From Synechococcus sp. UW140 (GTDB taxonomy: Bacteria > Cyanobacteriota > Cyanobacteriia > PCC-6307 > Cyanobiaceae): a DNA stretch of 64,000 nt. Shown here one piece after another: positions 23,076-37,888 of this stretch. A model generated the notes under the pieces. It made no database searches. It saw only the letters and a program-made list of their open reading frames with translations, and was not told where the DNA came from. The first letter of the stretch is position 1. Every line of letters starts with the position of its first letter. The stretch is from the NCBI GenBank assembly GCA_943371515.1, contig CALRVC020000006.1, positions 50,435 to 114,434 of the forward strand, in the 5' to 3' direction. A program made the translations under genes and the position numbers.

Positions 23076-23137
23076 GCAACTCACCCTCCACAAGCCAGGA
23101 TTCGGAGCCGAAGGGCACCCCGGAACGCCTGTCGATC

Positions 23138-24211
23138 GTGCTGCCGACCTACAACGAACGGCAGAACGTCGCCCGAATCCTGGAGGAACTGCTGCCACTG
23201 AAGCAACGCTTCGACCTCGAAGTTCTCTTCGTGGACGACGACTCGGCCGACGGCACGGCGGATCTGGTCAAGCAACTGGCCCATGGCCAGGCGGGTGTGC
23301 GCCTGATCCGCCGGGTGGGGCGCGCCGGCCTGGCCAGCGCCATCAAGGAAGGCATCCTCGATGCAACCGGCGATGTGATCGTGGTCATGGACTGCGACGG
23401 CCAGCACGAGCCGGCTGCGGTGGAAGCAGCTGTTGAGGCTCTCCTGAGCAGCGGCAGCGATCTGGTGGTGGGCAGCCGCTTCCACGCCGAGGCGGCCATT
23501 CATGGCCTGAGTGAGAAGCGCACCCGCAACTCCACCTGGGCCAACACCATTGCCCGCTTCAGCCTTCCGGGCTACCGCCGGCTCACGGATTACATGAGCG
23601 GCTTCTTTGCCCTGCGCCCCGAGGCCGCGCTGCGCTATGTGCGGCGGGTGGATGTGAATGGATTCAAGTTTCTCTACGAGCTGCTCTCAATCAGCCGCGG
23701 TTCGCTGCGGGTGAGTGAAATCCCCCTGCACTTCCAGGCCCGGGTGGCTGGTGATTCCAAGCTGGATCTGGCGATCGTCTGGGATCTGGGGGTGTCAATT
23801 CTGCACACCCTGCTGCTGCGCTCGATTCCCCGCCGAGCCATCAGCTTCGCCCTGGTGGGCCTGAGCGGAGTGGCGGTTCAGATGCTGGTGGTGCAGGCGC
23901 TGATGGGCGCCGCGGGGCTGGTCTTCAAGCAAGCACTGCCGATTGCGGTGGTGGTGGCTGCCAGCTCCAATTACCTGATCAACAACGCACTGACCTTCCG
24001 CTTCCAACGCCAACAGGGAACAGCGCTGCTGAAGGGCCTGCTCAAGTTCCTGCTGGTGGCCTCCCTGCCGGTGCTGGCCAATGTGGGCGTGGCCTCCACG
24101 TTTTACAACCTGGTGTCCCGCAACACCTTCTTGGCGCAACTGGCCGGCATTCTGGTGGTGTTCGTTTGGAACTACGCGGCGTCGTCCAGGCTTGTCTGGA
24201 ACACACCTTAG
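23138..24211 (+). CDS. Polyprenol-phosphate glycosyltransferase (GT2, DPM1/GtrB-like) fused to C-terminal GtrA domain; true start probably upstream
   Basis: LSIVLPTYNE, VDDDSADGT, MDCDGQH, DYMSGFF; C-terminal four-TM segment FALVGLSG...SSNYLINN..TF...WNY. Confidence 0.88.
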   Translation: MLPTYNERQNVARILEELLPLKQRFDLEVLFVDDDSADGTADLVKQLAHGQAGVRLIRRVGRAGLASAIKEGILDATGDVIVVMDCDGQHEPAAVEAAVEALLSSGSDLVVGSRFHAEAAIHGLSEKRTRNSTWANTIARFSLPGYRRLTDYMSGFFALRPEAALRYVRRVDVNGFKFLYELLSISRGSLRVSEIPLHFQARVAGDSKLDLAIVWDLGVSILHTLLLRSIPRRAISFALVGLSGVAVQMLVVQALMGAAGLVFKQALPIAVVVAASSNYLINNALTFRFQRQQGTALLKGLLKFLLVASLPVLANVGVASTFYNLVSRNTFLAQLAGILVVFVWNYAASSRLVWNTP

Positions 24212-25812: not shown

Positions 25813-26084
25813 ATCCCGCCAAGCGATGCGGAATGATTATGCCTCAGAGCTCCCCAGTGATCCCTACGGCCACCTCAGCAGCCTGGATGCCCACCGACCG
25901 CATCCACAGGCAGAAATTGCCCTCCCACCGGAATCAGCGGAAAACAATCGAAGCCACCCTTGTGCAGAGCTGCTGCATGGCGCGAGGTCCACAGTCCCCT
26001 CAGACAGGATCAGATGGCGTTCAGGGCAATTAGAGAAGAATCCCTGCGATACGCCTCGGTGCACGTGTGTAAAATGGTTCGCGA

Positions 26085-27776
26085 ATGCCGTGCCTGGCTC
26101 GATCAGCCATGCATGCCCCTAGTGGACCTATCCCGCCTGTGTCCATAAACGAAGGAAGAGCGAGCAGAACCCGGCCAGTCGGTCTGCTGGTCTGGTGCGC
26201 AGTCCTGGCCAGCAGTCTGTTCACCCTCTGGTTCTGGCTGAGTACGGCTTCACAACCTCTGGTCGATCAGCATGGCTTTCGGCAGACGCAGACCGCACTT
26301 TCGGCTTTTCATCTGTTCCAGAACGGGAACGGCCTCCTGAACTACGAGACCCCTGTCCTGGGGAAACCGTGGTCCATCCCCTTCGAGTTTCCCACCTTCC
26401 AGCTGGCAGCTTACTCGCTAAAGAGAATCTCAACCTTTGATCTTACCAGCGCGGGACGGCTGACCAGCATCGGCTTCGCCATGGGCTGCCTAGCCATCGG
26501 CATTGCCATTCTCAGACAGTTCTCGATATCGAAAGCTGGCATCATTGTCTTTACACTGCTTTATCTTTCTTCGCCGATTTACCTGTACTGGAGCAGAACT
26601 TTCATGATCGAAAGTACTGCCTTGCTGCTCAGCCTGGCAGCTCTCTACCTGTATTGGGCATCAAGGCGACTTGATGACAGGCACTGGGGGAAAATCCTTA
26701 CGGTCCTCACCTCTCTTCTGATTTGCCTGACGCTGGCGCTGCTGACCAAGGCCACCACCGCCTTGCCGGTGTTCCTGCTGATCCTGATCGACCAAACCTA
26801 TGCGATGGGGGCCGCCACCCTGCGCCGAACCCACAGCATCGACAGACGCAGAATCCTCGCCCGTGGCATCATAGTTCTCGCTATTCTCCTACTGTCGTTT
26901 CTTACCTTGAAGGGTTGGACTGCTCACGCCGACGCACTCAAGGAGCTCAATCCATTTGCACGATTCCTCACTTCCAAACAGCTTGCTAGATGGAACTTTG
27001 GTGATTTTCGTCAACGCCTCTCAGGCGATCTGTGGGTCGGCGCTGTGTGGCAAAGGATGCTGACTCCAAGTGGATCCATTCCAATTGCCATTATTTTGAT
27101 TCTCGGCACCATCAAGACTCGCCCAAATAGCCAGAGCCGCTATCTCATTCTCTGCTTTATGGGCTTGGCGCTGGTACCGCTGTTCATCTTCACCAATCTC
27201 CACATCATACATAACTACTATCAGTACGCCAATGAGATTTATCTACTTCTCGCAATCGCCGTCTCCATCGATGCTCTGACTAGCTCAGGACGCCGATCGT
27301 GGAATCTCCTTGCTGGCATCTGCCTGACTATCATTATCATCAGCTTCTATGGAAACTTCTTCCAATCTTACTATCGTGATGCTCAGATCACGGACAATGC
27401 AGAAAGCATGGCAGGCGCCTACACAAGAAGTATCACGGACCCAACGGAAGCCATCCTTGTGTTCGGCGACGATTGGAGTTCGGCCATGGCCTTCCATTCA
27501 CAACGCAGAGCGTTCACCTTCCGTCCGGCCCTTACGACCTCAGGCGACGGGATCAATCAGAATTATATTCTGGCCAACCCAGCTGATTTCATCGGTCCGC
27601 TCAGACTCGGAGCCATCGCAAGCAGGGGAGAAAAGATTCCTGCCGACAAAGTGTCCATAGCCTGCGGTCGAGCCACCAGTGGGGAACCCCATGTCGAGGG
27701 CGATTGGCTGATCTACTCCTGCCGATCCAGCGCAGCGCGTGTACAGCCTGATGCGTCATCAGATATCAGGTCTTGA
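26085..27776 (+). CDS. GT-C membrane glycosyltransferase, ArnT/PMT-like
   Basis: HGFRQTQT..., YETPVLGKPWSIPFEFP, YWSRTFMIES and HNYYQ motifs; multiple TM segments; visibly low GC. Confidence 0.72.
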   Translation: MPCLARSAMHAPSGPIPPVSINEGRASRTRPVGLLVWCAVLASSLFTLWFWLSTASQPLVDQHGFRQTQTALSAFHLFQNGNGLLNYETPVLGKPWSIPFEFPTFQLAAYSLKRISTFDLTSAGRLTSIGFAMGCLAIGIAILRQFSISKAGIIVFTLLYLSSPIYLYWSRTFMIESTALLLSLAALYLYWASRRLDDRHWGKILTVLTSLLICLTLALLTKATTALPVFLLILIDQTYAMGAATLRRTHSIDRRRILARGIIVLAILLLSFLTLKGWTAHADALKELNPFARFLTSKQLARWNFGDFRQRLSGDLWVGAVWQRMLTPSGSIPIAIILILGTIKTRPNSQSRYLILCFMGLALVPLFIFTNLHIIHNYYQYANEIYLLLAIAVSIDALTSSGRRSWNLLAGICLTIIIISFYGNFFQSYYRDAQITDNAESMAGAYTRSITDPTEAILVFGDDWSSAMAFHSQRRAFTFRPALTTSGDGINQNYILANPADFIGPLRLGAIASRGEKIPADKVSIACGRATSGEPHVEGDWLIYSCRSSAARVQPDASSDIRS

Positions 27777-27815
27777 GTCCTCAAGCCCCCTCCTGTCTCT
27801 CCCATCGCTGAGTCC

Positions 27816-28739
27816 TTGGCCTTTGTTCCTTCCCTGATCCGTTCTTGCCGACCCCGGCAATGGAGCAAGAACCTGCTGGTGTATGCCTCGGCCGTGTTCG
27901 CTTTCTCGCTGGCTCCGTCGGTCTGGTGGAATTCCAGCCTTGCCCTGATCTGCTTTTGCCTGATCTCCAGCAGCGTCTACCTGGTCAACGACATCATCGA
28001 CGTCGAGGCCGATCGCCGACACCCCAGAAAATGCCACCGGCCGATCGCCTCTGGAGCCGTTCCGATCCCGGCGGCCCTGACGGCCTCCGCCTTTCTGGCG
28101 TTGGCGAGCCTTTCCCTGGCAGCGACCCTGACGCCCAGTCTCGCCATGGTGGTTCTGGCCTACGCCCTGATCCAGCTCGCCTACTGCCTGGGGCTCAAAC
28201 GCCAGCCCCTGATCGACCTGTTCTGCATCGCCTCCGGCTTTTTGCTGCGGGCCGTCGCCGGGCTGGTGGCCACGGGGCTCGGCAGCTCCCCCTGGTTCCT
28301 GCTCTGCGTGGGCCTGCTCGCCCTCTTCCTGGCGGTGGAGAAACGCAAGGCCGAACTGCGGGTCTCCATGGATCGAGGGGTGATCACCCGGCAGGTGCTG
28401 GAGCGCTACTCGCTTCCCCTGCTCCAACGGCTGGAATCCTTGGTAGCGAGCAGCGCCTTCATGGCCTACAGCCTCTGGAGCGCAGGTCCCACGCTCCAGG
28501 GAGCTCCCACCAGCTGGATGCTGCTGACGGTTCCATTCGTGCTGGTGGGAATCTTTCGCTACCAGCTTCTCAGTGACCCCGAGGAGGCCGAACGACGGGC
28601 CAGTCGGCATCCCGACCAGAGCACAGAACGTCCGGAGGAGATCCTTCTGGGCGACCGCGGCATCCAGCTCACCCTGTTGGGCTGGATGACCACCGTGGTC
28701 ATGGTAGGGATGGGCCACAGAATGGCTTGGTTCCCATGA
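27816..28739 (+). CDS. Polyprenyl-phosphate phosphoribosyltransferase (UbiA family, DPPR synthase-like)
   Basis: RPRQWSKNL, YLVNDIIDVEADRRHPRK.HRPIASG, GFLLRAVAG, KRKAEL, GIFRY and PEEILLGD motifs. Confidence 0.88.
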   Translation: MAFVPSLIRSCRPRQWSKNLLVYASAVFAFSLAPSVWWNSSLALICFCLISSSVYLVNDIIDVEADRRHPRKCHRPIASGAVPIPAALTASAFLALASLSLAATLTPSLAMVVLAYALIQLAYCLGLKRQPLIDLFCIASGFLLRAVAGLVATGLGSSPWFLLCVGLLALFLAVEKRKAELRVSMDRGVITRQVLERYSLPLLQRLESLVASSAFMAYSLWSAGPTLQGAPTSWMLLTVPFVLVGIFRYQLLSDPEEAERRASRHPDQSTERPEEILLGDRGIQLTLLGWMTTVVMVGMGHRMAWFP

Positions 28740-29464
28740 TTCGCAGCGCCTTCGTGCTCGGCAGCACCAGTGCTGTCGCAGCGGCGCTCTGCAGGGCGCT
28801 GGCCAGGCAGGGCTGTCGCCGCTTCCACCTGGTCGCCCGCGACGCCCCCGCCAACGAACGGCTGGCCGCCGAACTGCGTGTGCGCCATGGGGCCGACGTC
28901 AGCCTGGAAACATGCGATCTTTTCGCCACAGCCTCCCTGGACAAGCCGCTGAGGCCCAGCATCGATCAGAGCTTCGATCTCTATCTCATCACTGCAGGCT
29001 CGCTCGGGGATGCCGAGGTGGCACGGTCTGATGCAGCTGAAGCGCTGGCGATCACAGCCGCCAACTACAGCGGGCTGCTTCCCTGGCTGACCGCCATCGT
29101 CACATCCGAACGGATCGCCAGGCCCGGCAGACTGTGGGTGTTCACTTCAGTGGCCGCCGACCGGGGCAGGCCCTCCAACTACCACTACGGCGCAGCGAAA
29201 GCGGCCCTCACCACCTACTGCGAAGGGCTGCTGCTGCGCTGTCAGGGCCAGCCGTTCTGCGTGCGCATTCTCAAGGCGGGTTTTATGGCCACACCGATGA
29301 CGCTCGGCAAGGCCCCACCCCTGCTCTGCGCCAGCCCCGAGTCTGTGGCCCTGGACCTGCTGCGACGGCCCGATCGCCGTGGCATCGAGTACATCCCCTG
29401 GTGGTGGGCACCGCTGATGTGGATGGTTCGCCTGCTGCCACGCCAGCTGGCCAGCAAGCTATGA
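28736..29464 (+). CDS. DprE2-like short-chain dehydrogenase/reductase
   Basis: LGSTSAVA, SVAADRGRPSNYHYGAAKA (YxxxK), KAGFMATPMT; between DPPR synthase and DprE1 homologues. Confidence 0.8.
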   Translation: MIRSAFVLGSTSAVAAALCRALARQGCRRFHLVARDAPANERLAAELRVRHGADVSLETCDLFATASLDKPLRPSIDQSFDLYLITAGSLGDAEVARSDAAEALAITAANYSGLLPWLTAIVTSERIARPGRLWVFTSVAADRGRPSNYHYGAAKAALTTYCEGLLLRCQGQPFCVRILKAGFMATPMTLGKAPPLLCASPESVALDLLRRPDRRGIEYIPWWWAPLMWMVRLLPRQLASKL

Positions 29465-30834
29465 CCCTCTCCTTTCCCTCGGAAACCCGCACCCTCACGG
29501 GCTGGGGCCGCACGATGCCCGTAAAGGCGACGGTCTGGAAACCAGCGTCGCTGGAGCAGTTGCAGCAGCTGGTGCACCAGGCCAGGCCGGGCAGCCTGAT
29601 TCCCCGCGGCCTCGGCCGGTCCTACGGGGATGCTGCCCAGTGCGCCGATGGGAATGTGATCGATCTGGGCGGATTCGATCGGATCGAACTCGATCCGATC
29701 CAAGGCACGGTCACGGCCGGAGCTGGTGTCAGCCTCGCCTCGGTGCTGCGGGTGATCGTTCCGGCCGGATTTTTCCTGCCCGTCACCCCCGGCACCCGCA
29801 ACGTGACGGTGGGCGGTGCCATCGCCGCCGACGTGCACGGCAAGAACCACCACGTCGAGGGCAGCTTCGCCAGCCACGTGCGCCACCTTCAGCTGGTCGA
29901 CGGCAACGGTGACCAGCACACTCTGCAGCCGGATGGCGAGGAGGAAGCCGCGGCCGCCTTCTGGGCCACCGCCGGCGGCATGGGTCTCACTGGCGTCATC
30001 ACCGAGGCCACCTTCTCTCTCCTGCCGATCCGCACGTCCCTGATCAGCGTCGATACCGACCGCCACAGCACGCTCGACTCCCTGATGGCGGCGATGGTGG
30101 AGGGGGACGCGCGCTACCGCTACAGCGTCGCCTGGGTGGACAGTCTCCACCCCCGGGGCCGGGGCGTGCTCACCCGCGGGGACCACAGCAGCCGTGAACA
30201 ATTGCAGGAGCTGGGCTCAGCTCAGACGGCGGAACCCCTGGCCTACGACCCCAGGGCGCTGGCTTCGGCCCCGGCCTTTCTGCCCGGGGGACTTCTGAAC
30301 ACCTGGACGGTACGGGCCTTCAACGAAACCTGGTTCCGCAAGGCCCCCGCGCATCGGATCGGCGAGCTTCAGGCCATCGGCCCCTTCTTCCATCCCCTCG
30401 ATGGTGTCGCCGACTGGAACCGCATCTATGGACCGGCCGGCTTCCTGCAGTACCAGTTCACCGTGCCGGACGAGGCTGCCGAGCTGGTGCCCCGCGCCCT
30501 GGAGGCCCTGCGCGGCATCGGCGCGCCCAGCTTCCTGACGGTGCTCAAACGTTTCGGGTCCGCCAATGCGGGACCCCTCTCATTCCCACAACCCGGGTGG
30601 ACCCTCGCCGCCGATGTGCCAGCGGCCGTGCCCGGACTGTTCGAGCTGCTCGATCGGCTCGACGAGCAGGTGGCGGCCAGCGGCGGACGTCTTTACCTGG
30701 CCAAGGATTCGCGCCAGTCCGCTGCCATCTTCCAGCGCAGCTATCCGCGACTCGATGACTGGCGGCGGCAGCGGAACCGACTCGATCCCCGCGCTGTCTT
30801 CAGCTCCGACCTGGCCCTGCGAGTCGGACTCTGA
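29461..30834 (+). CDS. DprE1-like FAD-dependent oxidase
   Basis: RGLGRSYGDAAQ, PVTPGTRNVTVGGAIAADVHGKNHH, WNRIYG..GFLQYQ, VLKRFG and GRLYLAKD motifs. Confidence 0.92.
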   Translation: MTLSFPSETRTLTGWGRTMPVKATVWKPASLEQLQQLVHQARPGSLIPRGLGRSYGDAAQCADGNVIDLGGFDRIELDPIQGTVTAGAGVSLASVLRVIVPAGFFLPVTPGTRNVTVGGAIAADVHGKNHHVEGSFASHVRHLQLVDGNGDQHTLQPDGEEEAAAAFWATAGGMGLTGVITEATFSLLPIRTSLISVDTDRHSTLDSLMAAMVEGDARYRYSVAWVDSLHPRGRGVLTRGDHSSREQLQELGSAQTAEPLAYDPRALASAPAFLPGGLLNTWTVRAFNETWFRKAPAHRIGELQAIGPFFHPLDGVADWNRIYGPAGFLQYQFTVPDEAAELVPRALEALRGIGAPSFLTVLKRFGSANAGPLSFPQPGWTLAADVPAAVPGLFELLDRLDEQVAASGGRLYLAKDSRQSAAIFQRSYPRLDDWRRQRNRLDPRAVFSSDLALRVGL

Positions 30835-31147
30835 TGCGCAGGGACAGCCGCACCGACTGTTCAGCCACCTCAATCACGTTCCGACACTTTCCTTTTGTCA
30901 TCGACGATCTCAATGCGGATGGTATTGTCTTCAGGAGCCACAGGGCGGCGCCAGAAGCGATGACCAGACTGCTCGTATTCCCGGTGATCAAGAATAGAAA
31001 TGAGCGGCTTGACATGACGAAGAGAAGAGCTGTTCGGCAGAACAAATCAATCCGCCACCAGCAACAGCTCTCGGCCGGGAGAGTCTCAGTGAACGCCGTC
31101 GATAGTCCCTTCAAGTTGATTCCCGACAGGATGGAGATGATCCGGCG

Positions 31148-32086
31148 ATGAGGGTGTTCCTCCCCGGTGGGGCCGGCCTGGTGGGCCTCAACCTGATCGC
31201 AGTGATTCAGCAACACCATCCCGACTGGCAGTTGCTCGTGGTGGACAAGAAGACCGAAGCGCTGGAAATCGGCAGGCGTCTGTTTCCCTCCGTCAGCTTC
31301 GTCGACGAGGATCTGACCCGCACGAGCGGACAGACCTGGCCGGCCCTGCTCAGCGGCTGTCACGCCTGCGTGATGCTTCAGGCCGAAATCGGCAACACCG
31401 ATCCCCAGGCCTTCGAGCGCAACAACATCACCAGCACCGAGGTGGTGCTGGCTGAATTGCGTCGACAGGGAATCCCCAGGCTCGTCCACGTGAGCAGCTC
31501 AGTGGTGAACTCCGTGGCCACCGACCTCTACACAAGCACTAAGCGCCGACAGGAGGAACTCGTCAGGCGTGCCTGGCCTGAGGCCGTCGTGCTGCGCCCC
31601 ACCCTGATGTTCGGATGGTTCGACCGCAAGCACCTCGGCTGGCTAGCACGCTTCATGCAACGCCTGCCGGTGTTCCCCATCCCCGGCTCAGGTCGGTTCA
31701 TCCGCCAGCCCCTCTATGTCGGCGACTTCTGCAGCATCATCGTGCGCTGCCTGGAGAGACCCTCCTTCAGCGGCACTTACGACATCACCGGCACAGAGCG
31801 GGTGACCTACATCAGCCTGATGCGTCAACTGCGCACTGCCGTGTCCGCGCGGCCATTGATCCTCCATCTGCCCATTCCCCTGTTCGGTTGGCTTCTGCAG
31901 CTCTGGGCCCTGATCAGTCGCCAGCCGGCCTTCACCCGGGATCAGCTTCAGGCACTCACAGCAGGTGATGAGTTTGAGGTGATCGACTGGCCGGGGATCT
32001 TCTCGGTTTCGCCCACGCCGCTGGCAGAGGCTCTGCGGATCGCCTATCGAGATCCCCGCTATTGCAACGTGGTGATCCCCTTCTGA
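31148..32086 (+). CDS. NAD-dependent epimerase/dehydratase family protein
   Basis: GGAGLVG Rossmann motif, HVSSS, YTSTK, LRPTLMFG. Confidence 0.85.
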   Translation: MRVFLPGGAGLVGLNLIAVIQQHHPDWQLLVVDKKTEALEIGRRLFPSVSFVDEDLTRTSGQTWPALLSGCHACVMLQAEIGNTDPQAFERNNITSTEVVLAELRRQGIPRLVHVSSSVVNSVATDLYTSTKRRQEELVRRAWPEAVVLRPTLMFGWFDRKHLGWLARFMQRLPVFPIPGSGRFIRQPLYVGDFCSIIVRCLERPSFSGTYDITGTERVTYISLMRQLRTAVSARPLILHLPIPLFGWLLQLWALISRQPAFTRDQLQALTAGDEFEVIDWPGIFSVSPTPLAEALRIAYRDPRYCNVVIPF

Positions 32087-33390
32087 TGAGCAGCACCTCC
32101 AGCATCGCTGTCATCGGCGGCGGCCCGATGGGTCTGGCCGTGGCCTACGAGCTCTGCCTCCAGGGCTTCCGGCCCGTGTTGCTCGAAGCCGACGACCGGC
32201 TCGGCGGCATGGCGGCCAGCTTCGATTTCGCCGGTGTTGAGCTGGAGCGTTATTACCACTTCCACTGCCTCAGTGACCGGGCCTTCTTCCAGCTGCTACA
32301 GGAACTGAACCTTCAGGATTCCCTGCGCTGGGAGCAGACCCGGATGGGATTCTTCCTCGATGGGCGTCTCTATCCGTGGGGTTCGGCCGGGGCCGTACTC
32401 GGTTTCAGGCGGTTGCCGCTTTCAACGCGCCTGCGCTATCTACTCCATGCTGCGCGTTGTCTCACGATCCGCGACTGGCGCCACCTCGATGGCCTGTCGG
32501 CGACGTCATGGCTGAAACGCTGGCTAGGCGAACAGGGATATCATGTGCTGTGGGGAAAACTCTTCGCCTACAAGTTCTATCACCACACTGATTCGCTCTC
32601 GGCCGCCTGGATCTGGAGCCGGATCCGCCGTGTCGGCCAGTCACGCCGGGGGCTGAAGGAAACCCTAGGCTATCTGGACGGTGGATCGAAGCGTTGGATC
32701 GAGGCCCTTGCCAACGAGATCCGCCGGCAGGGTGGCACGATCCGCCTCAACAACCCCGTGGGACAGCTGGGTGGCAGTGCTGAGGCTGGAGGCGTCGAGC
32801 TCTCCACACCAGCGGGAATGGAGCGCTTCGATGCTGTCATCTCCACGGTGCCGCTGCCACTGGTGGCTCCGATGCTCACGACCGGCGGCGTTGATGCGGC
32901 ACTGGTGCAGCCATTCGAAGCGCAACTCTCTGTGGCCTGCGCCTGCGTGGTGATCCAGACCAGACAGCCGATCACCCAGAATTTTTGGACCAACGTCAAT
33001 GACGAGCGATTCCGGATCCCCGGCATTATCGAAATGTCGAACCTGCAGCCGCTCCAACCCCACATCACCTACGTACCCTTCTATATGCCGGCCGACCATC
33101 CCGACTACGGCCGTCCGAACGAAGCCTTCATCAACGATTCGATCGCTTGCCTGAAGGCGATCAACCCGTCTCTCCAGGACGAGGACTTCCTGGCCTGCCA
33201 CTGCAGCCGTTATCGCCATGCCCAGCCGGTGTGCGGCGTTCACTTCCTGCGCACCCTGCCGCCGCTGCAGCCCCTGCCGAACCTCTGGATTGCCGACACC
33301 ACCGTGTACTACCCGGAGGACCGGGGCATCTCAGAGAGTGTTCAGTTCGGTCGAGAACTGGCGCGTAAGATCGCCGACAGCCTGAGATGA
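32086..33390 (+). CDS. FAD-dependent oxidoreductase (HemY/amine-oxidase fold)
   Basis: IGGGPMG, EADDRLGGMA, ERYYH, LGYLDGG, YYPEDRG. Confidence 0.85.
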   Translation: MSSTSSIAVIGGGPMGLAVAYELCLQGFRPVLLEADDRLGGMAASFDFAGVELERYYHFHCLSDRAFFQLLQELNLQDSLRWEQTRMGFFLDGRLYPWGSAGAVLGFRRLPLSTRLRYLLHAARCLTIRDWRHLDGLSATSWLKRWLGEQGYHVLWGKLFAYKFYHHTDSLSAAWIWSRIRRVGQSRRGLKETLGYLDGGSKRWIEALANEIRRQGGTIRLNNPVGQLGGSAEAGGVELSTPAGMERFDAVISTVPLPLVAPMLTTGGVDAALVQPFEAQLSVACACVVIQTRQPITQNFWTNVNDERFRIPGIIEMSNLQPLQPHITYVPFYMPADHPDYGRPNEAFINDSIACLKAINPSLQDEDFLACHCSRYRHAQPVCGVHFLRTLPPLQPLPNLWIADTTVYYPEDRGISESVQFGRELARKIADSLR

Positions 33391-33800
33391 CCGCCACCGG
33401 GAATCAACGTCGGCAATTCACGGCATTCGTACTCACCGGGGGACTGGCCGCCATGGTGAACGTGGTGAGCCGGGTCGGATTCTCCACAGTCGTGCACTTC
33501 GATCTGGCGGTTCTGCTCGCCTACGGATGCGGCATGCTCACGGCCTATCTCCTGGCTAGGAAGTTCGTGTTCATGAGCAGCCGCGTCAGCGTACGTCGAT
33601 CCTTCGCTGCCTTCTGCCTCGTGAATGCCTTCGCAGTGCTGCAGACCTGGGCGGTGAGCCTTGGGATGCGCAACTGGGTACTGCCGCTGCTCGGCATCGT
33701 GCTGTTCCGCGATCTGATCGCCCACACCATCGGCGTCGCCGTGCCGGTGGTCAGCAGCTATTTCGGGCACAAGCATATTTCCTTCCGTGATCACACCTGA
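33387..33800 (+). CDS. GtrA family polyprenyl-P-sugar translocase
   Basis: FVLTGGLAA..N, AY..AR.FVF, F..VN, SYFGHK..SF; 137 aa with 4 TM segments. Confidence 0.88.
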   Translation: MTATGNQRRQFTAFVLTGGLAAMVNVVSRVGFSTVVHFDLAVLLAYGCGMLTAYLLARKFVFMSSRVSVRRSFAAFCLVNAFAVLQTWAVSLGMRNWVLPLLGIVLFRDLIAHTIGVAVPVVSSYFGHKHISFRDHT

Positions 33801-35361
33801 CGACAAACTTCCGGTGGTGGCCGCCTTCGATTTTGACGGCACCCTCATCCGTGGCGACTGCCTGCTGATGCTGCACCGCCAGCTCAAGGGAGTCGGAGGC
33901 ATGGCGCTCGACTGGTTGCGCCTGATCAGGCCATTCCTCGCCTGGTCCAGGGGCCGTCTGAGCACAGCCGGCTTCAAGGAGCGCTATCTGTGCGTAGTGC
34001 TCCTGGACATGACACGGGAGACCCTCTCCATCGCGTTGAGCCATGCGCTGCCGGCCGTGGAGTGGCGCGCCCTGCGGCCTGGAGCCCTCGCCCGCCTGCG
34101 CTGGCATCAGACCCAGGGCCATCGTGTGGTGATCATCTCTGCTTCGCCCCGTCCCCTGATCGCTCCACTCGCTGATCGACTGGGGGTGGACCTGCTGGCC
34201 ACCGAGATCAGCGATCCTCTGGAGCATGGGCCGTCCACTCCCCTGCGGCTCACCTCGGCCAACTGCAAAGGAGCCGAGAAGGTCCAACGACTCAAGGACT
34301 GGCTTGATCTGCCCCTGGAGGAGATCAGCCTGTATGCCTACGGCGACAGCCGCGGGGACCGCCAGCTGTTGGAGGTGAGCACGGCGCCCCACTGGCGCAG
34401 CTTCGGCCCGGAACCGCGGCCCTACCCAGGCAGGAGGGCGACAGCGGGACCACCGGGTGGCTGGATCCCGCTGGCGGCGCTCATTCTGCTGAGCCTGGCC
34501 TTGTTCGGGCTGGCAGGCCTGAGCCCGGCGGAGCGACTCGGCCTCCAGGAGAGCCTGGGCCGTGTGCTGGCCTGGCTGCCGGCCATCTACGTGATCCTGG
34601 GATTGGCCTACTTGGGGCGTTACTGGCGCTGGCGACTGCTATTGAGCTCCGCCGACATCGGCCGCTGGAGCTGGCGCGATGCCGGAGCCTGGTTCGTGGG
34701 CTTCGCCCTCACCGCCACCCCCGGCAAACTCGGTGAGCTGAGCAGGGTGCAGCAGCTGCACCGGGAACTTGGCTATTCGCGCGCAGCGCTGGTGCATGTT
34801 TTCGTGGCGGAAAGGCTCTGCGATGGCGTGGCCGTGCTGCTGTGGCTGGCACTGCTGGCGCCCTCCGTCCTTCGGGCTGGCCTTGGGCGACTCCAACCGC
34901 CCGCGATCGGCCTGATGCTGCTGATGGGAGCCGCAGTCCTCGTTGCCATTGTCTGGATCTGGAGACGGTGGGGAGCGCCCTGGCGCCACCGTCTTCCCAG
35001 CGGTGCCCTGGGCAGGGCCTGCCTGCCTGCCAGCATCGTGAGTATGGGGATCTGGGCCTGTGAATCGCTGATTCTCTGGCTTCTGGTTCGGGTGGTCAGC
35101 CCCGCTCACCCGGTGCAGATCCAGGCGGCGATCAGCACTTACCTGCTTTCAGGATCACTCGGGATGCTCTCCACCCTCCCGGGCGGGGTGGGCGTCAACG
35201 AGGGAGCCACGATCGTGCTGCTGGCTCGCCTGGGTGTTCCAACCTCCGCAGGACTCGCCATCGCCATCCTGCGGCGCCTCTGCACGGTGTGGAGTGTGAC
35301 CGGACTGGCCGTGATGCTTGGCTGGTGGCGAGAGAGCCGAGAAGGCCTGAAACGGGCCTGA
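33787..35361 (+). CDS. HAD-IB phosphatase fused to lysylphosphatidylglycerol-synthase-TM (UPF0104 flippase-like) domain
   Basis: DFDGT, ISAS, NCKGAEK and YGDSRGD HAD motifs; C-terminal RYWRW, TPGKLGE, ERLCD and PGGVGVNEG motifs. Confidence 0.82.
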   Translation: MITPDDKLPVVAAFDFDGTLIRGDCLLMLHRQLKGVGGMALDWLRLIRPFLAWSRGRLSTAGFKERYLCVVLLDMTRETLSIALSHALPAVEWRALRPGALARLRWHQTQGHRVVIISASPRPLIAPLADRLGVDLLATEISDPLEHGPSTPLRLTSANCKGAEKVQRLKDWLDLPLEEISLYAYGDSRGDRQLLEVSTAPHWRSFGPEPRPYPGRRATAGPPGGWIPLAALILLSLALFGLAGLSPAERLGLQESLGRVLAWLPAIYVILGLAYLGRYWRWRLLLSSADIGRWSWRDAGAWFVGFALTATPGKLGELSRVQQLHRELGYSRAALVHVFVAERLCDGVAVLLWLALLAPSVLRAGLGRLQPPAIGLMLLMGAAVLVAIVWIWRRWGAPWRHRLPSGALGRACLPASIVSMGIWACESLILWLLVRVVSPAHPVQIQAAISTYLLSGSLGMLSTLPGGVGVNEGATIVLLARLGVPTSAGLAIAILRRLCTVWSVTGLAVMLGWWRESREGLKRA

Positions 35362-35440
35362 CAGAAATACTTTGGCCTCCAGAGCAGCAGCCTGCCACGC
35401 AGAAGCCAAGCCGCCAAGTCGTGGTGAAAAAGTCAGCGCG

Positions 35441-35542
35441 TCGGTGCCGCCGGAGCAATTGCTGCTGCAGCAACTCCACAACAATCTGCTGTTCCGTTAG
35501 TTTGTGGATCTGCACCCAGATGATCCGATCTGGCACCCGACC
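35441..35542 (+). pseudogene. IS5-family transposase fragment
   Basis: In-frame SVPPEQLLL-QQLHNNLLFR*FVDLHPDDPIWHPT resembles the IS5 segment PEQLL...EQL.YNLLFRWFVG..DD..W; TAG at 35498 replaces Trp. Confidence 0.75.
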
Positions 35543-35943
35543 AAGGATGGCCTACGGCCGGCCCCGGGTTCAGAAAACGAATCAGTACACACGTACGCCC
35601 TCGCGCCCGAAACACCTACGGCCAAGCCAGAGTACCCTTGCCACTCTGGTCATGAGGACATCGGGCCATGGCCGATGACATCTTTGGAGGCCTGACCCCG
35701 AAAGGAAACGTGGCCTGGGATTTGAATTGCGCTCAAAGATCCTGAGGCTGCTCCACCTCTTTATTGTGTTCTTTTTTTCCTGTCTTTGCAGGCTTGTCCG
35801 GCTCCATATCTCACCAGGGAAGGCCTGGACAATTACCGACGAAAGATGGAAGGATTGGCCAGTCACCGCATAGACGTGGCCATAGCCTCCGTAAGCCCTC
35901 CTCAGATGCCCGTTGCGGCGCGATGTGGCATCGGTTGTTTTTC

Positions 35944-36015
35944 ATGAGTCCCTACTGCCGTGAGCGGGGCTTGTCTCCCGAGCAGGTGGATCGCTGGCGA
36001 GCAGCGTCCCAGTAA
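35944..36015 (+). mobile_element. IS3-family OrfA fragment
   Basis: YCRERGLSPEQVDRWR resembles the YCRERGL.PEQ..RW helix of IS3 OrfA. Confidence 0.65.
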
Positions 36016-36212
36016 GTGCTTCTCGGGAGGCGAACCGTCAGATATCAGCTGTGGCCATGGGTGGGCCGGTCTGTGACCCTGTTTGGAGCACAACCACCAA
36101 ACCGAACACAGACCATGACCCTGTGCCCCGTGTCAATCAGGTTGAGGTCCGCGCCCTGAAATCAGGCTCCAGCTCAGCTCCCTTCCACGACTGGCATTCA
36201 GAGGCAGTCGGT

Positions 36213-37373
36213 TCAGCGGGTCGGGGTACCGACAACATCCGTGGCTTGTTGACGCAGGGAGCTCACCACGCCACTGCGCTTGAGTTCGCTGATCGCCAGA
36301 TCGATCCGTTGAGCAGTGGCCTCAGGCAACCCAGGGGCAAAGACAAACGCCTGGGATTCAGGCCGAATGCCCTGCAGGGCCAGGCTGGGCAGGAAGCCTT
36401 TCAACGGAGAATGGATCAAAAGATAGCTCAGCTGCAGGTTGTCGCCCAGCAACGCATCGATTCGCCTGGAGACCAGAAGATCGACCCCCGAACGAATGCT
36501 GGCAAGGGGCAGGATCGAGACCTTCGGGCCCATGGTGGCGGCGTTGAGTTCCTGCAGCAACGCTTCGCTCACAGTGCCGCTGCGCACTCCCACCCGCAGA
36601 CCGAGCAGATCTGACTCAGAACGGATCCCTCCGCTGGCCGTGCCCTGCACCTCCCGTGCCACATTCACGGTGAGATAGCCCACCAGCAGGGAGGCTGAGA
36701 CGATCCTCACCATGTAGGCCATCAACACGATGGCATTCCCCCTGGTGGTGGCCACGAGGGTGTTGCTGCCTGGCCCGGTCGCGAGCACCTGGAACACTTT
36801 GCTGAAGCTGCGAACGCGCCCTTGGCTGAGGGTCTGGGGCAGCTGGGGGTAGCGCTCCACGGTCCAGGTCAGCAGGGACAGAAGCGCGATCGCCAGCAGG
36901 TAGCCGCCCAGCAGCTGCAGCAGCGTGGGCGTCAGCAGCGCAGCCAGGAATGAGCGGCCTAAATCAAGTCGGCTCTGCACCACCATCACCGCGAGCCCAT
37001 CCTCCTGGAAGGGAAGACTGAAGCGGTAACGCTCCAGCCGATCAGGCGACACGTTGAGGCAGCCCACCGCCAGATCCAGCCTGCCGTCGCGGGTGCCCTC
37101 CAACATCTCCTGGACCGAGGGCATCTCCGAAACCACGTAAGGAAGACGCTCGCGCGTGGCAATCCGGTTCCATAGATCGATGGATAGCCCCCGCCAGGCA
37201 CCTGCGTCCCGGTAGCTGCACGGAGGCGCCCCATCCACCACTCCCACCCGCAACACTGGCGCCGACGTTCCGGCAGAAACCGGGAACCCCACTGCCAGTA
37301 GCAGGGCGTAGCCCGAGCCCACCAGCACACCTCTGATGCGGACGTCAATGCTGAAAGCTCTGCTTCGTGCCAT
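36213..37373 (-). CDS. GluR0-like ligand-gated channel / PBP type 2 protein with internal TM segments
   Basis: Signal peptide; S1 lobe (LRVGV..PP, GLSIDLW, DLAVG..VSPDR..FSLPF); two TM helices with a re-entrant segment; S2 lobe (DL.GLRVGV, DALLGD). Confidence 0.75.
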   Translation of the reverse strand: MARSRAFSIDVRIRGVLVGSGYALLLAVGFPVSAGTSAPVLRVGVVDGAPPCSYRDAGAWRGLSIDLWNRIATRERLPYVVSEMPSVQEMLEGTRDGRLDLAVGCLNVSPDRLERYRFSLPFQEDGLAVMVVQSRLDLGRSFLAALLTPTLLQLLGGYLLAIALLSLLTWTVERYPQLPQTLSQGRVRSFSKVFQVLATGPGSNTLVATTRGNAIVLMAYMVRIVSASLLVGYLTVNVAREVQGTASGGIRSESDLLGLRVGVRSGTVSEALLQELNAATMGPKVSILPLASIRSGVDLLVSRRIDALLGDNLQLSYLLIHSPLKGFLPSLALQGIRPESQAFVFAPGLPEATAQRIDLAISELKRSGVVSSLRQQATDVVGTPTR

Positions 37374-37888
37374 GGGGTCATTCTGGCGGGGCCTAAAGGA
37401 TCGTCCCGATCCCAATCAGGGAAAGCATGCCCTGCAAGAGAGGGACCTTGGAGCAAGCCGGCTCCCCTCATTAAAAGTTTTGCCGATCACTTCATGGCAC
37501 CATGAACAGTCTATCCCCCTGCTTGATCGAGTGTCGCTCTAAAAAGTAGAACAATAGTTCTCGACTCCAGAGTTTCGAAATAGCAGCTTTTCACGGCGCC
37601 CATTAGTCTCAGTGCAGAGCTCCCTTGGGCGACAGTCCCGGCATGCAAAGCACCGCCCAGTATCACCTGAGGGGATCGAGGCGATCGACCAGGTCGTGGT
37701 GATAGATCTGGTTCGGGCGGATCCCATGCAGGGAGATCACCCGCTCGGGTGTGGTCAGAAAATAGAGCGCACCGCCTGGGATCGCCGCTGTCAGGAAACT
37801 CTCGGCCATCTGGCCGCAGGTGTGATCGGGAGCCAGGCCCACCCAGGCGATCACCTGCTGGGCCGTAGGGACGCGCCGTGCGCCCAAA

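What the first reader, a model, noticed from the sequence alone, without database searches (positions are those of the whole stretch)
33787..35361. HAD phosphatase fused to a flippase-like UPF0104 membrane domain
Seen: one uninterrupted 524-aa ORF with all four HAD-IB motifs, followed by a LPG-synthase-TM-like domain. Inference: it could dephosphorylate polyprenyl-P-ribose-5-P and hand the product to a translocase or transferase domain, replacing the PAP2-type phosphatase proposed for mycobacteria. This would give the island up to three translocase-like modules.
Basis: partly seen in the sequence, partly recalled or inferred. Interest (0 to 1): 0.62.

Follow-up and report, generated by a model that had tools for sequence, protein, structure and literature searches.

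The report
Phosphatase fused to lipid-flippase domain
A picocyanobacterium carries a real, conserved gene that joins a sugar-phosphate phosphatase to an MprF-type lipid-translocator domain; the gene always sits with the genes that make lipid-linked arabinofuranose, so this domain is a concrete candidate for the flippase that has never been pinned down in that pathway.

Summary
Window 33787-35361 (+) is one uninterrupted 524-aa ORF with an N-terminal HAD-IB phosphatase domain, catalytic motifs intact, and a C-terminal PF03706 (MprF flippase-type) membrane domain.

The fusion is not an assembly artefact. More than 100 protein clusters from picocyanobacteria have the same two-domain architecture.

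In every informative case the fusion lies within a few kb of UbiA-type polyprenyl-P phosphoribosyltransferase and DprE1/DprE2 genes: 11 of 11 sister genomes, 37 of 37 informative metagenome contigs, and one other cyanobacterial family.

In Nitrosomonadales/Gallionella the same parts occur as separate genes in one operon (GT-C, DprE1, DprE2, HAD, UbiA, PF03706). Domain trees show that the HAD was joined to two different PF03706 paralogues.

No PAP2 phosphatase lies in the island.

Most likely the HAD domain removes the 5-phosphate from polyprenyl-P-ribose-5-P, and the membrane domain translocates the polyprenyl-P-pentofuranose, or at least holds it.

A HAD phosphatase doing this job, but fused to the UbiA enzyme, was shown in Citrobacter in 2024. 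PF03706 domains were already predicted to be flippases. Linking them to this pathway appears new, so this is a new variant of a known kind. All evidence is comparative; there is no biochemistry.

The parts
33787..35361 (+). HAD::PF03706 fusion gene (524 aa), the last gene of the + strand operon.
   Evidence: Open frame. Two Pfam domains over their cut-offs. AlphaFold2 model with mean pLDDT 88.8.
33787..34440 (+). Cytoplasmic HAD-IB phosphatase domain plus a Pro/Gly-rich linker (residues 1-218). Predicted polyprenyl-P-ribose-5-P 5-phosphatase.
   Evidence: PF12710 and TIGR01488 hits. Catalytic residues D15, D17, T19, S120, K165 and D191 are invariant across the family representatives. By Foldseek it resembles 3fvv and SerB-type phosphatases. 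Stand-alone homologues of 36-43% identity sit between DprE2 and UbiA in Nitrosomonadales-type operons.
34441..35361 (+). PF03706 / UPF0104 / MprF-TMD1-type membrane domain (residues 219-524). Eight helices with two re-entrant hairpins. Predicted translocator or binding site for polyprenyl-P-pentofuranose.
   Evidence: PF03706 E 1.1e-32. NCBIfam MprF profile positions 120-298, E 1.7e-10. Foldseek matches to MprF structures 9goe, 9j8s and 7duw over about 325 columns. Helix pattern and invariant motifs TATPGKxGE (309-317) and LPGGxGxxE (464-472).
27816..28739 (+). UbiA-family polyprenyl-phosphate 5-phosphoribosyltransferase (DPPR synthase type). It makes the presumed substrate of the HAD domain.
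   Evidence: NF008978, 263 bits against a cut-off of 207.
28727..29464 (+). DprE2-like classical SDR reductase (245 aa). Easily missed because the DprE1 ORF call overlaps it.
   Evidence: ORF. NF053786 (DprE2) 97.7 bits, below its cut-off of 250. Best match is PRK07102 SDR. GSTS...A and YxxxK motifs, no signal peptide.
29458..30834 (+). DprE1-type FAD oxidase (458 aa from the ATG at 29458). The longer ORF starting at 29134 is a spurious extension.
   Evidence: NF053785, 541 bits against a cut-off of 500, profile positions 1-449. The N-terminal 108 residues of the long ORF are low-complexity and overlap DprE2.
30834..31151 (+). 105-aa ORF. It is a decayed C-terminal remnant of a 696-aa membrane protein that is intact in two sister genomes (a deletion scar).
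   Evidence: tblastn gives 51-54% identity to the last 96 residues of L021:7916-10006, while the flanking genes are about 90% identical. No Pfam hit.
31148..32086 (+). Extended (GalE-like) SDR, part of the accessory trio of type-A clusters.
   Evidence: PF01370, E 9.9e-15. Conserved next to the FAD oxidoreductase and GtrA in relatives.
32062..33390 (+). FAD-dependent amine-oxidase-fold oxidoreductase (PRK07233 family).
   Evidence: NF005560, 449 bits against a cut-off of 252.
33387..33800 (+). GtrA-family small membrane protein, the second translocase-like module. It is translationally coupled to the fusion gene.
   Evidence: PF04138, E 1.3e-12. Overlap with the fusion gene's start.
26085..27776 (+). 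GT-C (PMT/ArnT-like) glycosyltransferase, the candidate user of the lipid-linked pentofuranose on the outer face of the membrane.
   Evidence: PF02366, 22.7 bits, exactly at the cut-off. Homologues of 41% identity lie just downstream of the fusion in other type-A clusters.
23138..24211 (+). GT2-GtrA fusion (a polyprenyl-P-hexose synthase with a built-in GtrA domain), the third translocase-like module of the island.
   Evidence: PF00535 E 4.5e-28 and PF04138 E 3.5e-20.

Best explanation
The gene encodes a bifunctional inner-membrane protein of a polyprenyl-phosphate-arabinofuranose (DPA-type) pathway.

Proposed sequence of steps:
1. UbiA transfers ribose-5-P from PRPP to polyprenyl-P.
2. The cytoplasmic N-terminal HAD-IB domain removes the 5-phosphate. 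In mycobacteria this job is ascribed to the PAP2 enzyme Rv3807c.
3. Cytoplasmic DprE1 and DprE2 epimerise C2 to give polyprenyl-P-Araf.
4. The C-terminal PF03706 domain, a homologue of the MprF translocator domain, binds the lipid-linked pentofuranose and moves it to the outer leaflet.
5. A GT-C transferase uses it there.

Tethering the phosphatase to the translocator keeps the soluble enzyme at the membrane, next to its lipid substrate and the export site.

What is shown: the domain identities, the intact catalytic residues, the MprF-like fold, and the strict gene linkage.
What is inferred: the substrate of the HAD domain (my estimate about 0.75), the translocating role of the membrane domain (about 0.5), and the order of steps.
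For: Domains and motifs.

Fold: AlphaFold2 model with pLDDT 88.8, eight TM helices and two re-entrant hairpins. Foldseek matches SerB-type HAD structures and MprF structures 9goe, 9j8s and 7duw.

Linkage in related genomes: of 151 genomes of the same family, 11 hold the fusion. All 11 hold a true DprE1, 9 of the 10 others on the same contig within about 6 kb.

Linkage in metagenomes: of 42 contigs with HAD+PF03706, 37 carry UbiA, DprE1, DprE2 or the GtrA/FAD-oxidoreductase genes. The other 5 are cut off within 200 bases upstream of the gene.

Linkage in another cyanobacterial family: G340 has UbiA-DprE1-DprE2-...-fusion.

Two different cluster architectures both keep the fusion:
- Type A: UbiA-DprE2-DprE1-SDR-FADox-GtrA-fusion.
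- Type B: UbiA-fusion-solo PF03706-DprE2-DprE1.

Unfused version: a Nitrosomonadales MAG has GT-C-DprE1-DprE2-HAD-[TPR protein]-UbiA-PF03706 as separate genes; in a closely related metagenome operon, L097, the genes overlap by 4 nt. PF03706 therefore has its own role in the pathway.

Independent joinings: the TM domain of type-A fusions is sister to the solo PF03706 of type B (support 100/100). An AU test rejects a single clade of fused domains (p = 3.5e-6). The HAD domains stay sister groups.

Other points:
- No PAP2 gene in the island.
- A Bacteroidales locus has UbiA next to a stand-alone PF12710 HAD.

Precedents in the literature:
- A HAD-family phosphoribose phosphatase fused to the UbiA-like synthase is required for undP-Ribf synthesis (PMC11127046).
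- The MprF translocator domain is a promiscuous scramblase whose substrate preference may come from the fused enzyme (PMC11980842).
- PF03706 domains are fused to the dolichol-P-hexose synthase AglD and are predicted to be flippases (PMC5898192).
Against: There is no biochemical or genetic test of either domain.

The HAD domain does not match the N-terminal phosphatase part of the HAD-UbiA family NF006088 at E <= 0.01. The Nitrosomonadales homologue matches it only weakly, at 7e-4. It is therefore a different HAD subfamily from the characterised one.

Some type-A relatives keep the HAD domain but lack PF03706 (L057, L059, L074, L077). Two genomes with the cluster lack both (G046, G112). All of these have GtrA, so the membrane domain is dispensable when GtrA is present.

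The immediate HAD product, polyprenyl-P-ribose, must still be epimerised before export. A simple 'dephosphorylate then flip' relay is therefore unlikely unless epimerisation takes place outside the cytoplasm.

The lipid carrier and the final sugar are unknown. An extra SDR/FAD-oxidoreductase pair in the operon may change the sugar.
Confidence: 0.55

Rival explanations
1. The HAD domain is the polyprenyl-P-ribose-5-P phosphatase, but the PF03706 domain only anchors it. It would act as a lipid-binding dock that presents the substrate, like lipid site I of MprF. The actual flippase would be GtrA, or an ABC or MATE transporter in other lineages.
For: GtrA is encoded directly upstream and is translationally coupled. 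Relatives with HAD but no PF03706, and clusters with neither, all carry GtrA. One low-GC cluster has an MsbA-like ABC half-transporter instead. The MprF study suggests the cytoplasmic lipid site of this domain may feed the fused enzyme rather than start transport (PMC11980842).
Against: Type-B and low-GC clusters have no GtrA but one or two PF03706 units. In Nitrosomonadales the HAD is a soluble stand-alone protein and PF03706 is kept as its own gene in the operon, so it is not merely an anchor for the HAD. In vitro, the MprF homologue of this domain does scramble lipids.
Confidence: 0.25
2. The HAD domain acts on a soluble sugar phosphate or nucleotide-like metabolite rather than on the lipid-linked intermediate. 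Candidate substrates are a phosphopentose, PRPP-derived products, or phosphoserine- or histidinol-phosphate-like compounds. It would then supply or regulate precursors.
For: HAD-IB relatives include phosphoserine and histidinol phosphatases. One relative of 39% identity is fused to a TerD domain, not to a lipid enzyme. Some stand-alone homologues lie away from any UbiA or DprE gene (L095, L004, G188).
Against: Fusion to an integral membrane lipid-handling domain, made twice independently, and strict operon linkage with the enzyme that makes a lipid-linked 5-phosphoribose both point to a membrane substrate. The pathway needs a 5-phosphatase, and no other candidate lies in the island.
Confidence: 0.1
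3. The fusion belongs to an unrelated membrane-lipid pathway, for example head-group dephosphorylation and flipping of a glycerophospholipid, as in MprF- or GpgF-type systems. On this view it sits in the glycosylation island only by chance or co-transfer.
For: All characterised PF03706 proteins act on glycerolipids: MprF, and the predicted GpgF.
Against: Linkage to UbiA/DprE1/DprE2 holds across two cluster architectures, GC contents from 0.26 to 0.71, two cyanobacterial families and Betaproteobacteria. The genome has a separate stand-alone PF03706 gene elsewhere, on contig C5, available for housekeeping roles.
Confidence: 0.05

Closest known systems
Citrobacter youngae O1/O2 ORF15 (HAD-family phosphoribose phosphatase fused to a UbiA-like polyprenyl-P phosphoribosyltransferase) and its three-component pentofuranose glycosylation system (Kelly et al., PNAS 2024, PMC11127046)
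   Same: It has the same pathway logic. PRPP is transferred to polyprenyl-P. A HAD-fold phosphatase that is physically fused to a membrane partner removes the 5-phosphate. Optional epimerases act, a flippase exports the donor, and a GT-C transferase uses it in the periplasm.
   Different: Here the HAD domain is fused to the putative translocator (PF03706), not to the synthase. The HAD is a HAD-IB/PF12710 type that does not match the NF006088 phosphatase part. The flippase candidates are PF03706 and GtrA rather than a MATE protein. DprE1/DprE2 are present, plus an extra SDR/FAD pair.
Mycobacterial decaprenyl-P-arabinose pathway (Rv3806c UbiA, Rv3807c PAP2 phosphatase, DprE1/DprE2, Rv3789 GtrA-like protein)
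   Same: UbiA and DprE1 score above the NCBIfam cut-offs built on these enzymes. A DprE2-like SDR and a GtrA-family protein are present.
   Different: There is no PAP2 gene in the island; a HAD-IB domain takes that position. A PF03706 domain is added that has no counterpart in the mycobacterial cluster. The host is a Gram-negative picocyanobacterium, and both the acceptor glycan and the lipid carrier are unknown.
MprF (aminoacyl-phosphatidylglycerol synthase fused to a flippase/scramblase domain; PDB 7duw, 9goe, 9j8s)
   Same: The membrane domain is homologous and shares the fold: eight helices with two re-entrant hairpins. The design principle is the same, a lipid-modifying cytoplasmic enzyme fused to this translocator.
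   Different: The enzyme is N-terminal here and C-terminal in MprF. There is no second six-helix TM domain (TMD2) and no aminoacyl-transferase domain. The presumed substrate is a polyprenyl-P-sugar, not a glycerophospholipid.
Archaeal AglD-type proteins (GT2 dolichol-P-hexose synthase fused to PF03706), and stand-alone UPF0104 proteins such as YbhN/PplT and GpgF
   Same: A PF03706 domain is attached to, or encoded beside, an enzyme that makes a lipid-linked sugar. It is predicted to flip that product and is associated with GT-C-like transferases (PMC5898192; PMC12713373). A preprint lists 'dehalogenase-like hydrolase + PplT' as a rare architecture without interpreting it (10.1101/2022.03.11.483950).
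   Different: The partner enzyme is a phosphatase acting one or more steps before the exported product, not the synthase of that product. None of these proteins has been linked to the DPA or pentofuranose pathway.
Pseudomonas aeruginosa Pa5196/PA7 D-arabinofuranose pilin glycosylation cluster (PsPA7_6245-6251)
   Same: It is a Gram-negative DPA-type pathway with a UbiA homologue, DprE1, DprE2 and a GtrA-like protein. The flippase is still unidentified (10.1101/2020.04.19.049825).
   Different: That cluster has an Rv3807c homologue as its phosphatase and no PF03706 component.

Membership tests
HAD superfamily, subfamily IB (Pfam PF12710; NCBIfam TIGR01488) | Profile score above the curated cut-off | tested here: met
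   PF12710 109.5 bits against 27. TIGR01488 81.5 bits against 45. TIGR01490 91.1 bits, below its cut-off of 98.3.
HAD superfamily, subfamily IB (Pfam PF12710; NCBIfam TIGR01488) | Four catalytic motifs: DxDxT, S/T, K, and (G)DxxxD | tested here: met
   D15, D17, T19, S120, K165, G186 and D191 are invariant in 17 representatives down to 25% identity. D187 is conserved in about 90% of them.
HAD superfamily, subfamily IB (Pfam PF12710; NCBIfam TIGR01488) | Rossmannoid core with a helical C1 cap | tested here: met
   The AlphaFold2 model has pLDDT above 90 over residues 10-210. Foldseek matches 3fvv (TM-score 0.71-0.73 on the target) and SerB-type phosphoserine phosphatases.
Phosphoribose phosphatase (PRP) acting on polyprenyl-P-ribose-5-P (Kelly et al. 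2024) | HAD-fold domain encoded with, or fused to, a PRPP-dependent phosphoribosyltransferase | tested here: met
   It is in one operon with the UbiA-type synthase here and in all informative relatives. In type-B clusters it lies directly downstream of UbiA.
Phosphoribose phosphatase (PRP) acting on polyprenyl-P-ribose-5-P (Kelly et al. 2024) | Sequence membership in the HAD part of the HAD-UbiA fusion family (NCBIfam NF006088 / PRK08238, positions about 1-190) | tested here: not met
   No NF006088 hit for the fusion protein at E <= 0.01. The Nitrosomonadales homologue gives only E 7e-4 over profile positions 71-159. I assumed, but did not verify, that NF006088 represents the ORF15 family.
Phosphoribose phosphatase (PRP) acting on polyprenyl-P-ribose-5-P (Kelly et al. 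2024) | 5-phosphatase activity on the lipid-linked phosphoribose | not testable with these tools
   This needs an enzyme assay or lipid analysis.
MprF translocator domain / UPF0104 / PplT (Pfam PF03706, TIGR00374, COG0392) | Profile score above the curated cut-off | tested here: met
   PF03706 114.2 bits against 33.4, covering profile positions 4-300 of 302. TIGR00374 52.4 bits against 43.2.
MprF translocator domain / UPF0104 / PplT (Pfam PF03706, TIGR00374, COG0392) | Eight-helix bundle with re-entrant hairpins at TM3 and TM7, as in MprF TMD1 | tested here: met
   Model helices: 226-243, 247-288, 296-308/315-328, 332-365, 371-395, 406-437, 445-461/470-481 and 486-523. Foldseek matches 9goe, 9j8s and 7duw over about 325 columns, probability 1.00. 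The architecture is described in PMC11980842.
MprF translocator domain / UPF0104 / PplT (Pfam PF03706, TIGR00374, COG0392) | Conserved TM7-TM8 salt bridge (E295-R319 in P. aeruginosa MprF) | tested here: inconclusive
   E472 (hairpin 7) and R497 (TM8) are invariant in the family and sit in the right helices. No residue-level alignment to MprF could be obtained.
MprF translocator domain / UPF0104 / PplT (Pfam PF03706, TIGR00374, COG0392) | Transbilayer lipid movement | not testable with these tools
   This needs reconstitution or in vivo accessibility assays.
Rv3807c-type PAP2 phospholipid phosphatase | PAP2 (PF01569) domain | tested here: not met
   The fusion protein has no PAP2 hit. The genome's three PAP2 matches are on contigs C5, C50 and C1, not in the island on C6.
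Three-component extracytoplasmic pentofuranose glycosylation system (GT136 type) | Polyprenyl-P phosphoribose synthase plus phosphatase, a flippase, and a GT-C transferase in one locus | tested here: met
   UbiA 27816-28739, the HAD domain, GtrA and PF03706, and GT-C 26085-27776.
Three-component extracytoplasmic pentofuranose glycosylation system (GT136 type) | MATE-family flippase and a GT136-family GT-C | not tested
   No MATE gene was seen among the island ORFs scanned. GT136 membership of the GT-C was not examined.

The most novel reading that the evidence does not exclude
PF03706 (UPF0104/PplT) proteins would be a dedicated family of flippases for polyprenyl-phosphate-pentofuranoses (polyprenyl-P-Araf or -Ribf), used by cyanobacteria and Betaproteobacteria. 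On this reading the cyanobacterial HAD::PF03706 fusion, formed twice with different paralogues, marks a physical complex that couples the last cytoplasmic steps of donor synthesis to export. That would supply the translocator that is still unidentified or disputed in the mycobacterial and Pseudomonas D-arabinofuranose pathways. It would also extend MprF-type translocators from glycerophospholipids to isoprenoid glycolipids.
Probability: 0.4. Interest if true: 0.72.

Novelty: new variant of a known kind. Interest (0 to 1): 0.55.

Why it matters
How lipid-linked arabinofuranose or ribofuranose crosses the membrane is unresolved:
- In mycobacteria the role of GtrA-like Rv3789 is disputed.
- In P. 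aeruginosa no flippase is known.
- In Citrobacter the MATE candidate is untested.

A domain fusion, backed by conserved operons in two phyla, names a specific candidate from a fold already shown to scramble lipids. That candidate can be tested in non-pathogenic hosts.

The result also shows three further things. DPA-type pathways with a HAD-IB phosphatase are widespread in picocyanobacteria and in Nitrosomonadales/Gallionella. Picocyanobacterial surface glycans probably contain D-arabinofuranose or a related pentofuranose. Such a variable glycosylation island (here between tkt and thiC) probably changes how phages and grazers recognise the cell surface.

Tried and rejected
1. Assembly or frameshift artefact: rejected. 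All 120 listed relatives from independent sources carry both domains.

2. DprE1 with a 108-residue N-terminal extension that might be a signal or anchor: rejected. The extension is low-complexity and overlaps the DprE2 gene at 28727-29464 in another frame. The NCBIfam profile starts at the ATG at 29458.

3. Cluster lacking DprE2, with the extended SDR as its replacement: rejected once DprE2 was found.

4. The first genome-contig scan with the single protein gave only 5 loci, mostly HAD-only hits. Whole-genome searches and an alignment-based metagenome scan were needed.

5. Residue-level alignment of the membrane domain to solved MprF chains failed. This was tried with the single sequence and with a 17-sequence TM-only profile. 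Only the 38-sequence full-length profile reached MprF, at E 1.2e-3. The salt-bridge equivalence therefore stays inferred.

6. Taxonomic assignment of the low-GC (0.26-0.31) marine fusions: unresolved. The flanking genes are glycan genes, 40-72% identical to the window's genome, so they are not decisive.

8. Literature searches for DprE1 or arabinofuranose in cyanobacteria found nothing relevant. The 2024 PNAS paper and its supplement mention neither cyanobacteria nor MprF-type flippases.
Full report
**Observation**

Window 33787-35361 (+) is a single 524-codon open frame. Pfam finds HAD (PF12710, residues 12-196, E 3.5e-31) and LPG_synthase_TM (PF03706, residues 230-506, E 1.1e-32). Both score far above their gathering cut-offs. 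NCBIfam agrees: HAD-IB TIGR01488 and flippase-like TIGR00374 are over their cut-offs, and there is a local match to the MprF profile at positions 120-298.

In an alignment of 17 representatives down to 25% identity, the HAD catalytic set is invariant: D15, D17, T19, S120, K165, G186, D191. So are charged and glycine residues of two internal motifs of the membrane domain, TATPGKxGE (309-317) and LPGGxGxxE (464-472), together with R278, R281, E342, D346, E426 and R497 (a 38-sequence alignment gives the same picture).

The start codon may be GTG 33787, which overlaps the GtrA stop by 14 nt, or GTG 33814 or 33817.

**Reality of the fusion**

The protein database search returned 326 relatives. The best 120 (47-82% identity) all carry both Pfam domains in proteins of 442-562 residues. 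The named ones are 'HAD-IB family hydrolase/phosphatase' of Synechococcus strains and other picocyanobacteria.

An exhaustive search of 1.84 billion cluster representatives found only 44 proteins at E <= 1e-30, of which about 17 are full-length fusions. The family is real but small. The independent assemblies make an artefact untenable.

**Neighbourhood in the window**

The + strand operon reads as follows:
- GT-C transferase, 26085-27776.
- UbiA-type decaprenyl-phosphate phosphoribosyltransferase, 27816-28739 (NF008978 over cut-off).
- DprE2-like SDR, 28727-29464.
- DprE1, 29458-30834 (NF053785, 541 bits, over cut-off).
- A 105-codon remnant, 30834-31151.
- An extended GalE-like SDR, 31148-32086.
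- An FAD oxidoreductase, 32062-33390.
- GtrA, 33387-33800.
- The fusion gene.

The apparent N-terminal extension of DprE1 in the ORF list is spurious and hides DprE2. Upstream lie a GT2-GtrA fusion and a GtrII-like GT-C. Downstream are core genes: thiC, ruvB and others. The genome's PAP2 genes are all on other contigs.

**Does the fusion travel with DPA genes?**

Yes, in every sample examined.

- Same family: among 151 genomes, 11 hold the fusion or a remnant of it. All 11 hold a high-scoring DprE1, which otherwise occurs in only 4 more genomes. In 9 of the 10 other genomes the two genes are on one contig within about 6 kb.
- Metagenomes: an alignment-based scan gave 79 loci, 42 of them with HAD and PF03706 fused or adjacent. 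Of these, 35 carry UbiA, DprE1 or DprE2 and 2 more carry the GtrA/FAD-oxidoreductase genes. The remaining 5 are cut off within 200 bases upstream of the gene.
- Whole phylum: a sample of 300 cyanobacterial genomes found one more fusion, in a different family (G340). It again follows UbiA-DprE1-DprE2.

Two architectures exist:
- Type A, as in the window: UbiA-DprE2-DprE1-SDR-FADox-GtrA-fusion-(GT-C).
- Type B: UbiA-fusion-stand-alone PF03706-DprE2-DprE1-(GT-C).

Low-GC marine versions with 23-31% identity in each domain keep UbiA, the fusion, DprE2 and DprE1 together.

**The same parts, unfused**

HAD homologues of 36-43% identity occur as stand-alone genes between DprE2 and UbiA, with a stand-alone PF03706 gene (25-33% identity) after UbiA. 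In locus L097 these genes overlap by 4 nt. Named relatives are from Nitrosomonadales, Gallionella and other Betaproteobacteria.

One Nitrosomonadales MAG shows this order: GT-C(PMT_2)-DprE1-DprE2-HAD-[TPR protein]-UbiA-PF03706. A Bacteroidales MAG has UbiA next to a stand-alone PF12710 HAD. Both domains of the cyanobacterial protein are thus recurrent, separately encoded members of one variety of DPA-type operon. The fusion is a classic Rosetta-stone link between them.

**Two independent joinings**

In a maximum-likelihood tree of the membrane domains, type-A fused domains (including the window's) group with the stand-alone PF03706 of type-B clusters (support 100/100). They do not group with the fused domains of type-B and low-GC proteins. 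An AU test rejects a single clade of all fused domains (p = 3.5e-6). I named that group after seeing the identities, so the p-value is indicative only.

The HAD domains of types A and B/low-GC remain sister clades. The phosphatase has therefore been tethered to two different PF03706 paralogues. This argues for selection on keeping the two close together.

**Structure**

AlphaFold2 with 38 sequences gives mean pLDDT 88.8 and pTM 0.65. Only the linker (residues 217-220) falls below 50. The N-terminal domain matches HAD-IB structures (3fvv, SerB). The C-terminal domain matches MprF from P. aeruginosa and R. tropici over about 325 columns.

The helix pattern is eight helices, the third and seventh being re-entrant hairpins that carry the invariant motifs at their tips. 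This equals the TMD1 architecture described for MprF (PMC11980842). There is no signal peptide before the HAD domain, and the first hydrophobic segment starts near residue 226. The phosphatase should therefore face the cytoplasm. That topology is an inference.

**What is known**

- Kelly et al. 2024 (PMC11127046) showed in Citrobacter youngae that a HAD-family phosphoribose phosphatase domain, fused to the UbiA-like synthase, is required to make undecaprenyl-P-ribofuranose. They proposed a MATE flippase and a GT-C transferase, with DprE1/E2 or a GalE-like epimerase diversifying the sugar. They note that Rv3807c is unrelated to HAD enzymes and that no flippase activity has been shown. Neither the paper nor its supplement mentions cyanobacteria or MprF-type domains.
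- PF03706 was predicted to be a flippase, including as the C-terminal domain of AglD, in 2015 (PMC5898192).
- A preprint lists dehalogenase-like hydrolase fusions among rare 'PplT' architectures without comment.
- P. aeruginosa MprF scrambles many lipids in vitro. Its authors suggest that substrate preference comes from the fused enzyme.
- No D-Araf flippase is known in P. aeruginosa.

**Mechanism proposed**

1. UbiA makes polyprenyl-P-ribose-5-P.
2. The HAD domain removes the 5-phosphate.
3. Cytoplasmic DprE1/DprE2 make polyprenyl-P-Araf. The extra SDR/FAD pair may modify it further.
4. The PF03706 domain, GtrA, or both move the donor outward.
5. The GT-C transferase uses it.

Clusters without PF03706 carry GtrA or an ABC half-transporter, and clusters without GtrA carry PF03706. 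This fits interchangeable translocators, but the sample is small and phylogenetically dependent.

**Weak points**

- There is no experiment.
- The HAD subfamily differs from the characterised one.
- The membrane domain is dispensable in some relatives.
- The order of steps is unknown.

**Verdict**

The phosphatase idea is no longer novel, since HAD-for-PAP2 substitution was published in 2024. The recurrent association of MprF-type PF03706 proteins with DPA-type pathways appears undescribed, as does the fusion itself as evidence for it. Class: new variant of a known kind. Interest: 0.55.

Noticed in passing
window 30834-31151: The 105-codon ORF between DprE1 and the extended SDR is a diverged C-terminal remnant (51-54% identity) of a 696-aa multi-pass membrane protein with no Pfam hit. 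That protein is intact at the same place in two sister genomes (L021:7916-10006). The window therefore carries a deletion scar of about 1.8 kb.
   Followed up: partly
window 28727-29464 and 29134-29458: A mechanical ORF call for DprE1 (29134-30834) hides a 245-aa DprE2-like SDR in another frame. The real DprE1 start is the ATG at 29458, overlapping the DprE2 stop.
   Followed up: yes
window 31148-33800; L029, L030, L035-L038: The trio of extended GalE-like SDR, PRK07233-type FAD oxidoreductase and GtrA is a conserved add-on of type-A clusters and is absent from type-B clusters. A GalE-like SDR converts undP-Ribf to undP-Xylf in Citrobacter O2 (PMC11127046). Combined with DprE1/E2, this island might therefore make a pentofuranose other than Araf. 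I did not test this.
   Followed up: no
L029 12418-13749 (G046) and L030 (G112): Two sister genomes have UbiA-DprE1-SDR-FADox-GtrA next to thiC but no HAD and no PF03706. Instead, a 443-aa membrane protein with no Pfam hit sits between the SDR and the FAD oxidoreductase. The phosphatase of these clusters is unknown.
   Followed up: partly
L121 (Nitrosomonadales MAG GCA_016218415.1), L096, L097, L102, L108, L093: There is a widespread betaproteobacterial operon, GT-C(PMT_2)-DprE1-DprE2-HAD-UbiA-PF03706. Its PF03706 protein is highly conserved: 3437 relatives at E <= 1e-10, the top 120 at 75-95% identity. This suggests D-arabinofuranose-type glycans in Nitrosomonadales/Gallionella.
   Followed up: partly
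L031 (G029, low-GC member of the same family): This is a minimal cluster, UbiA-DprE2-DprE1, convergent with a PMT_2 GT-C and next to an MsbA-like ABC half-transporter. It has no HAD, GtrA or PF03706 within 8 kb.
   Followed up: partly
protein P0186 (metagenomic, 383 aa): A TerD domain is fused to a PF12710 HAD that is 39% identical to the window's HAD domain. From memory, Ter-type clusters also encode phosphoribosyltransferases, so this HAD-IB branch may generally remove 5-phosphates from phosphoribosylated products. I did not check this.
   Followed up: no
L079 955-2631 and L080: In these metagenome contigs (GC about 0.5) the HAD gene (241 aa) ends with a stop codon immediately followed by the GTG start of a 316-aa PF03706 gene, directly after DprE1. 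This is a split version of the fusion.
   Followed up: partly
window 23076-37888; L029, L030, L057, L059: thiC lies directly beside the DPA-type cluster in several other picocyanobacterial genomes and contigs too. The tkt-thiC region therefore looks like a recurrent site for variable glycosylation genes.
   Followed up: partly
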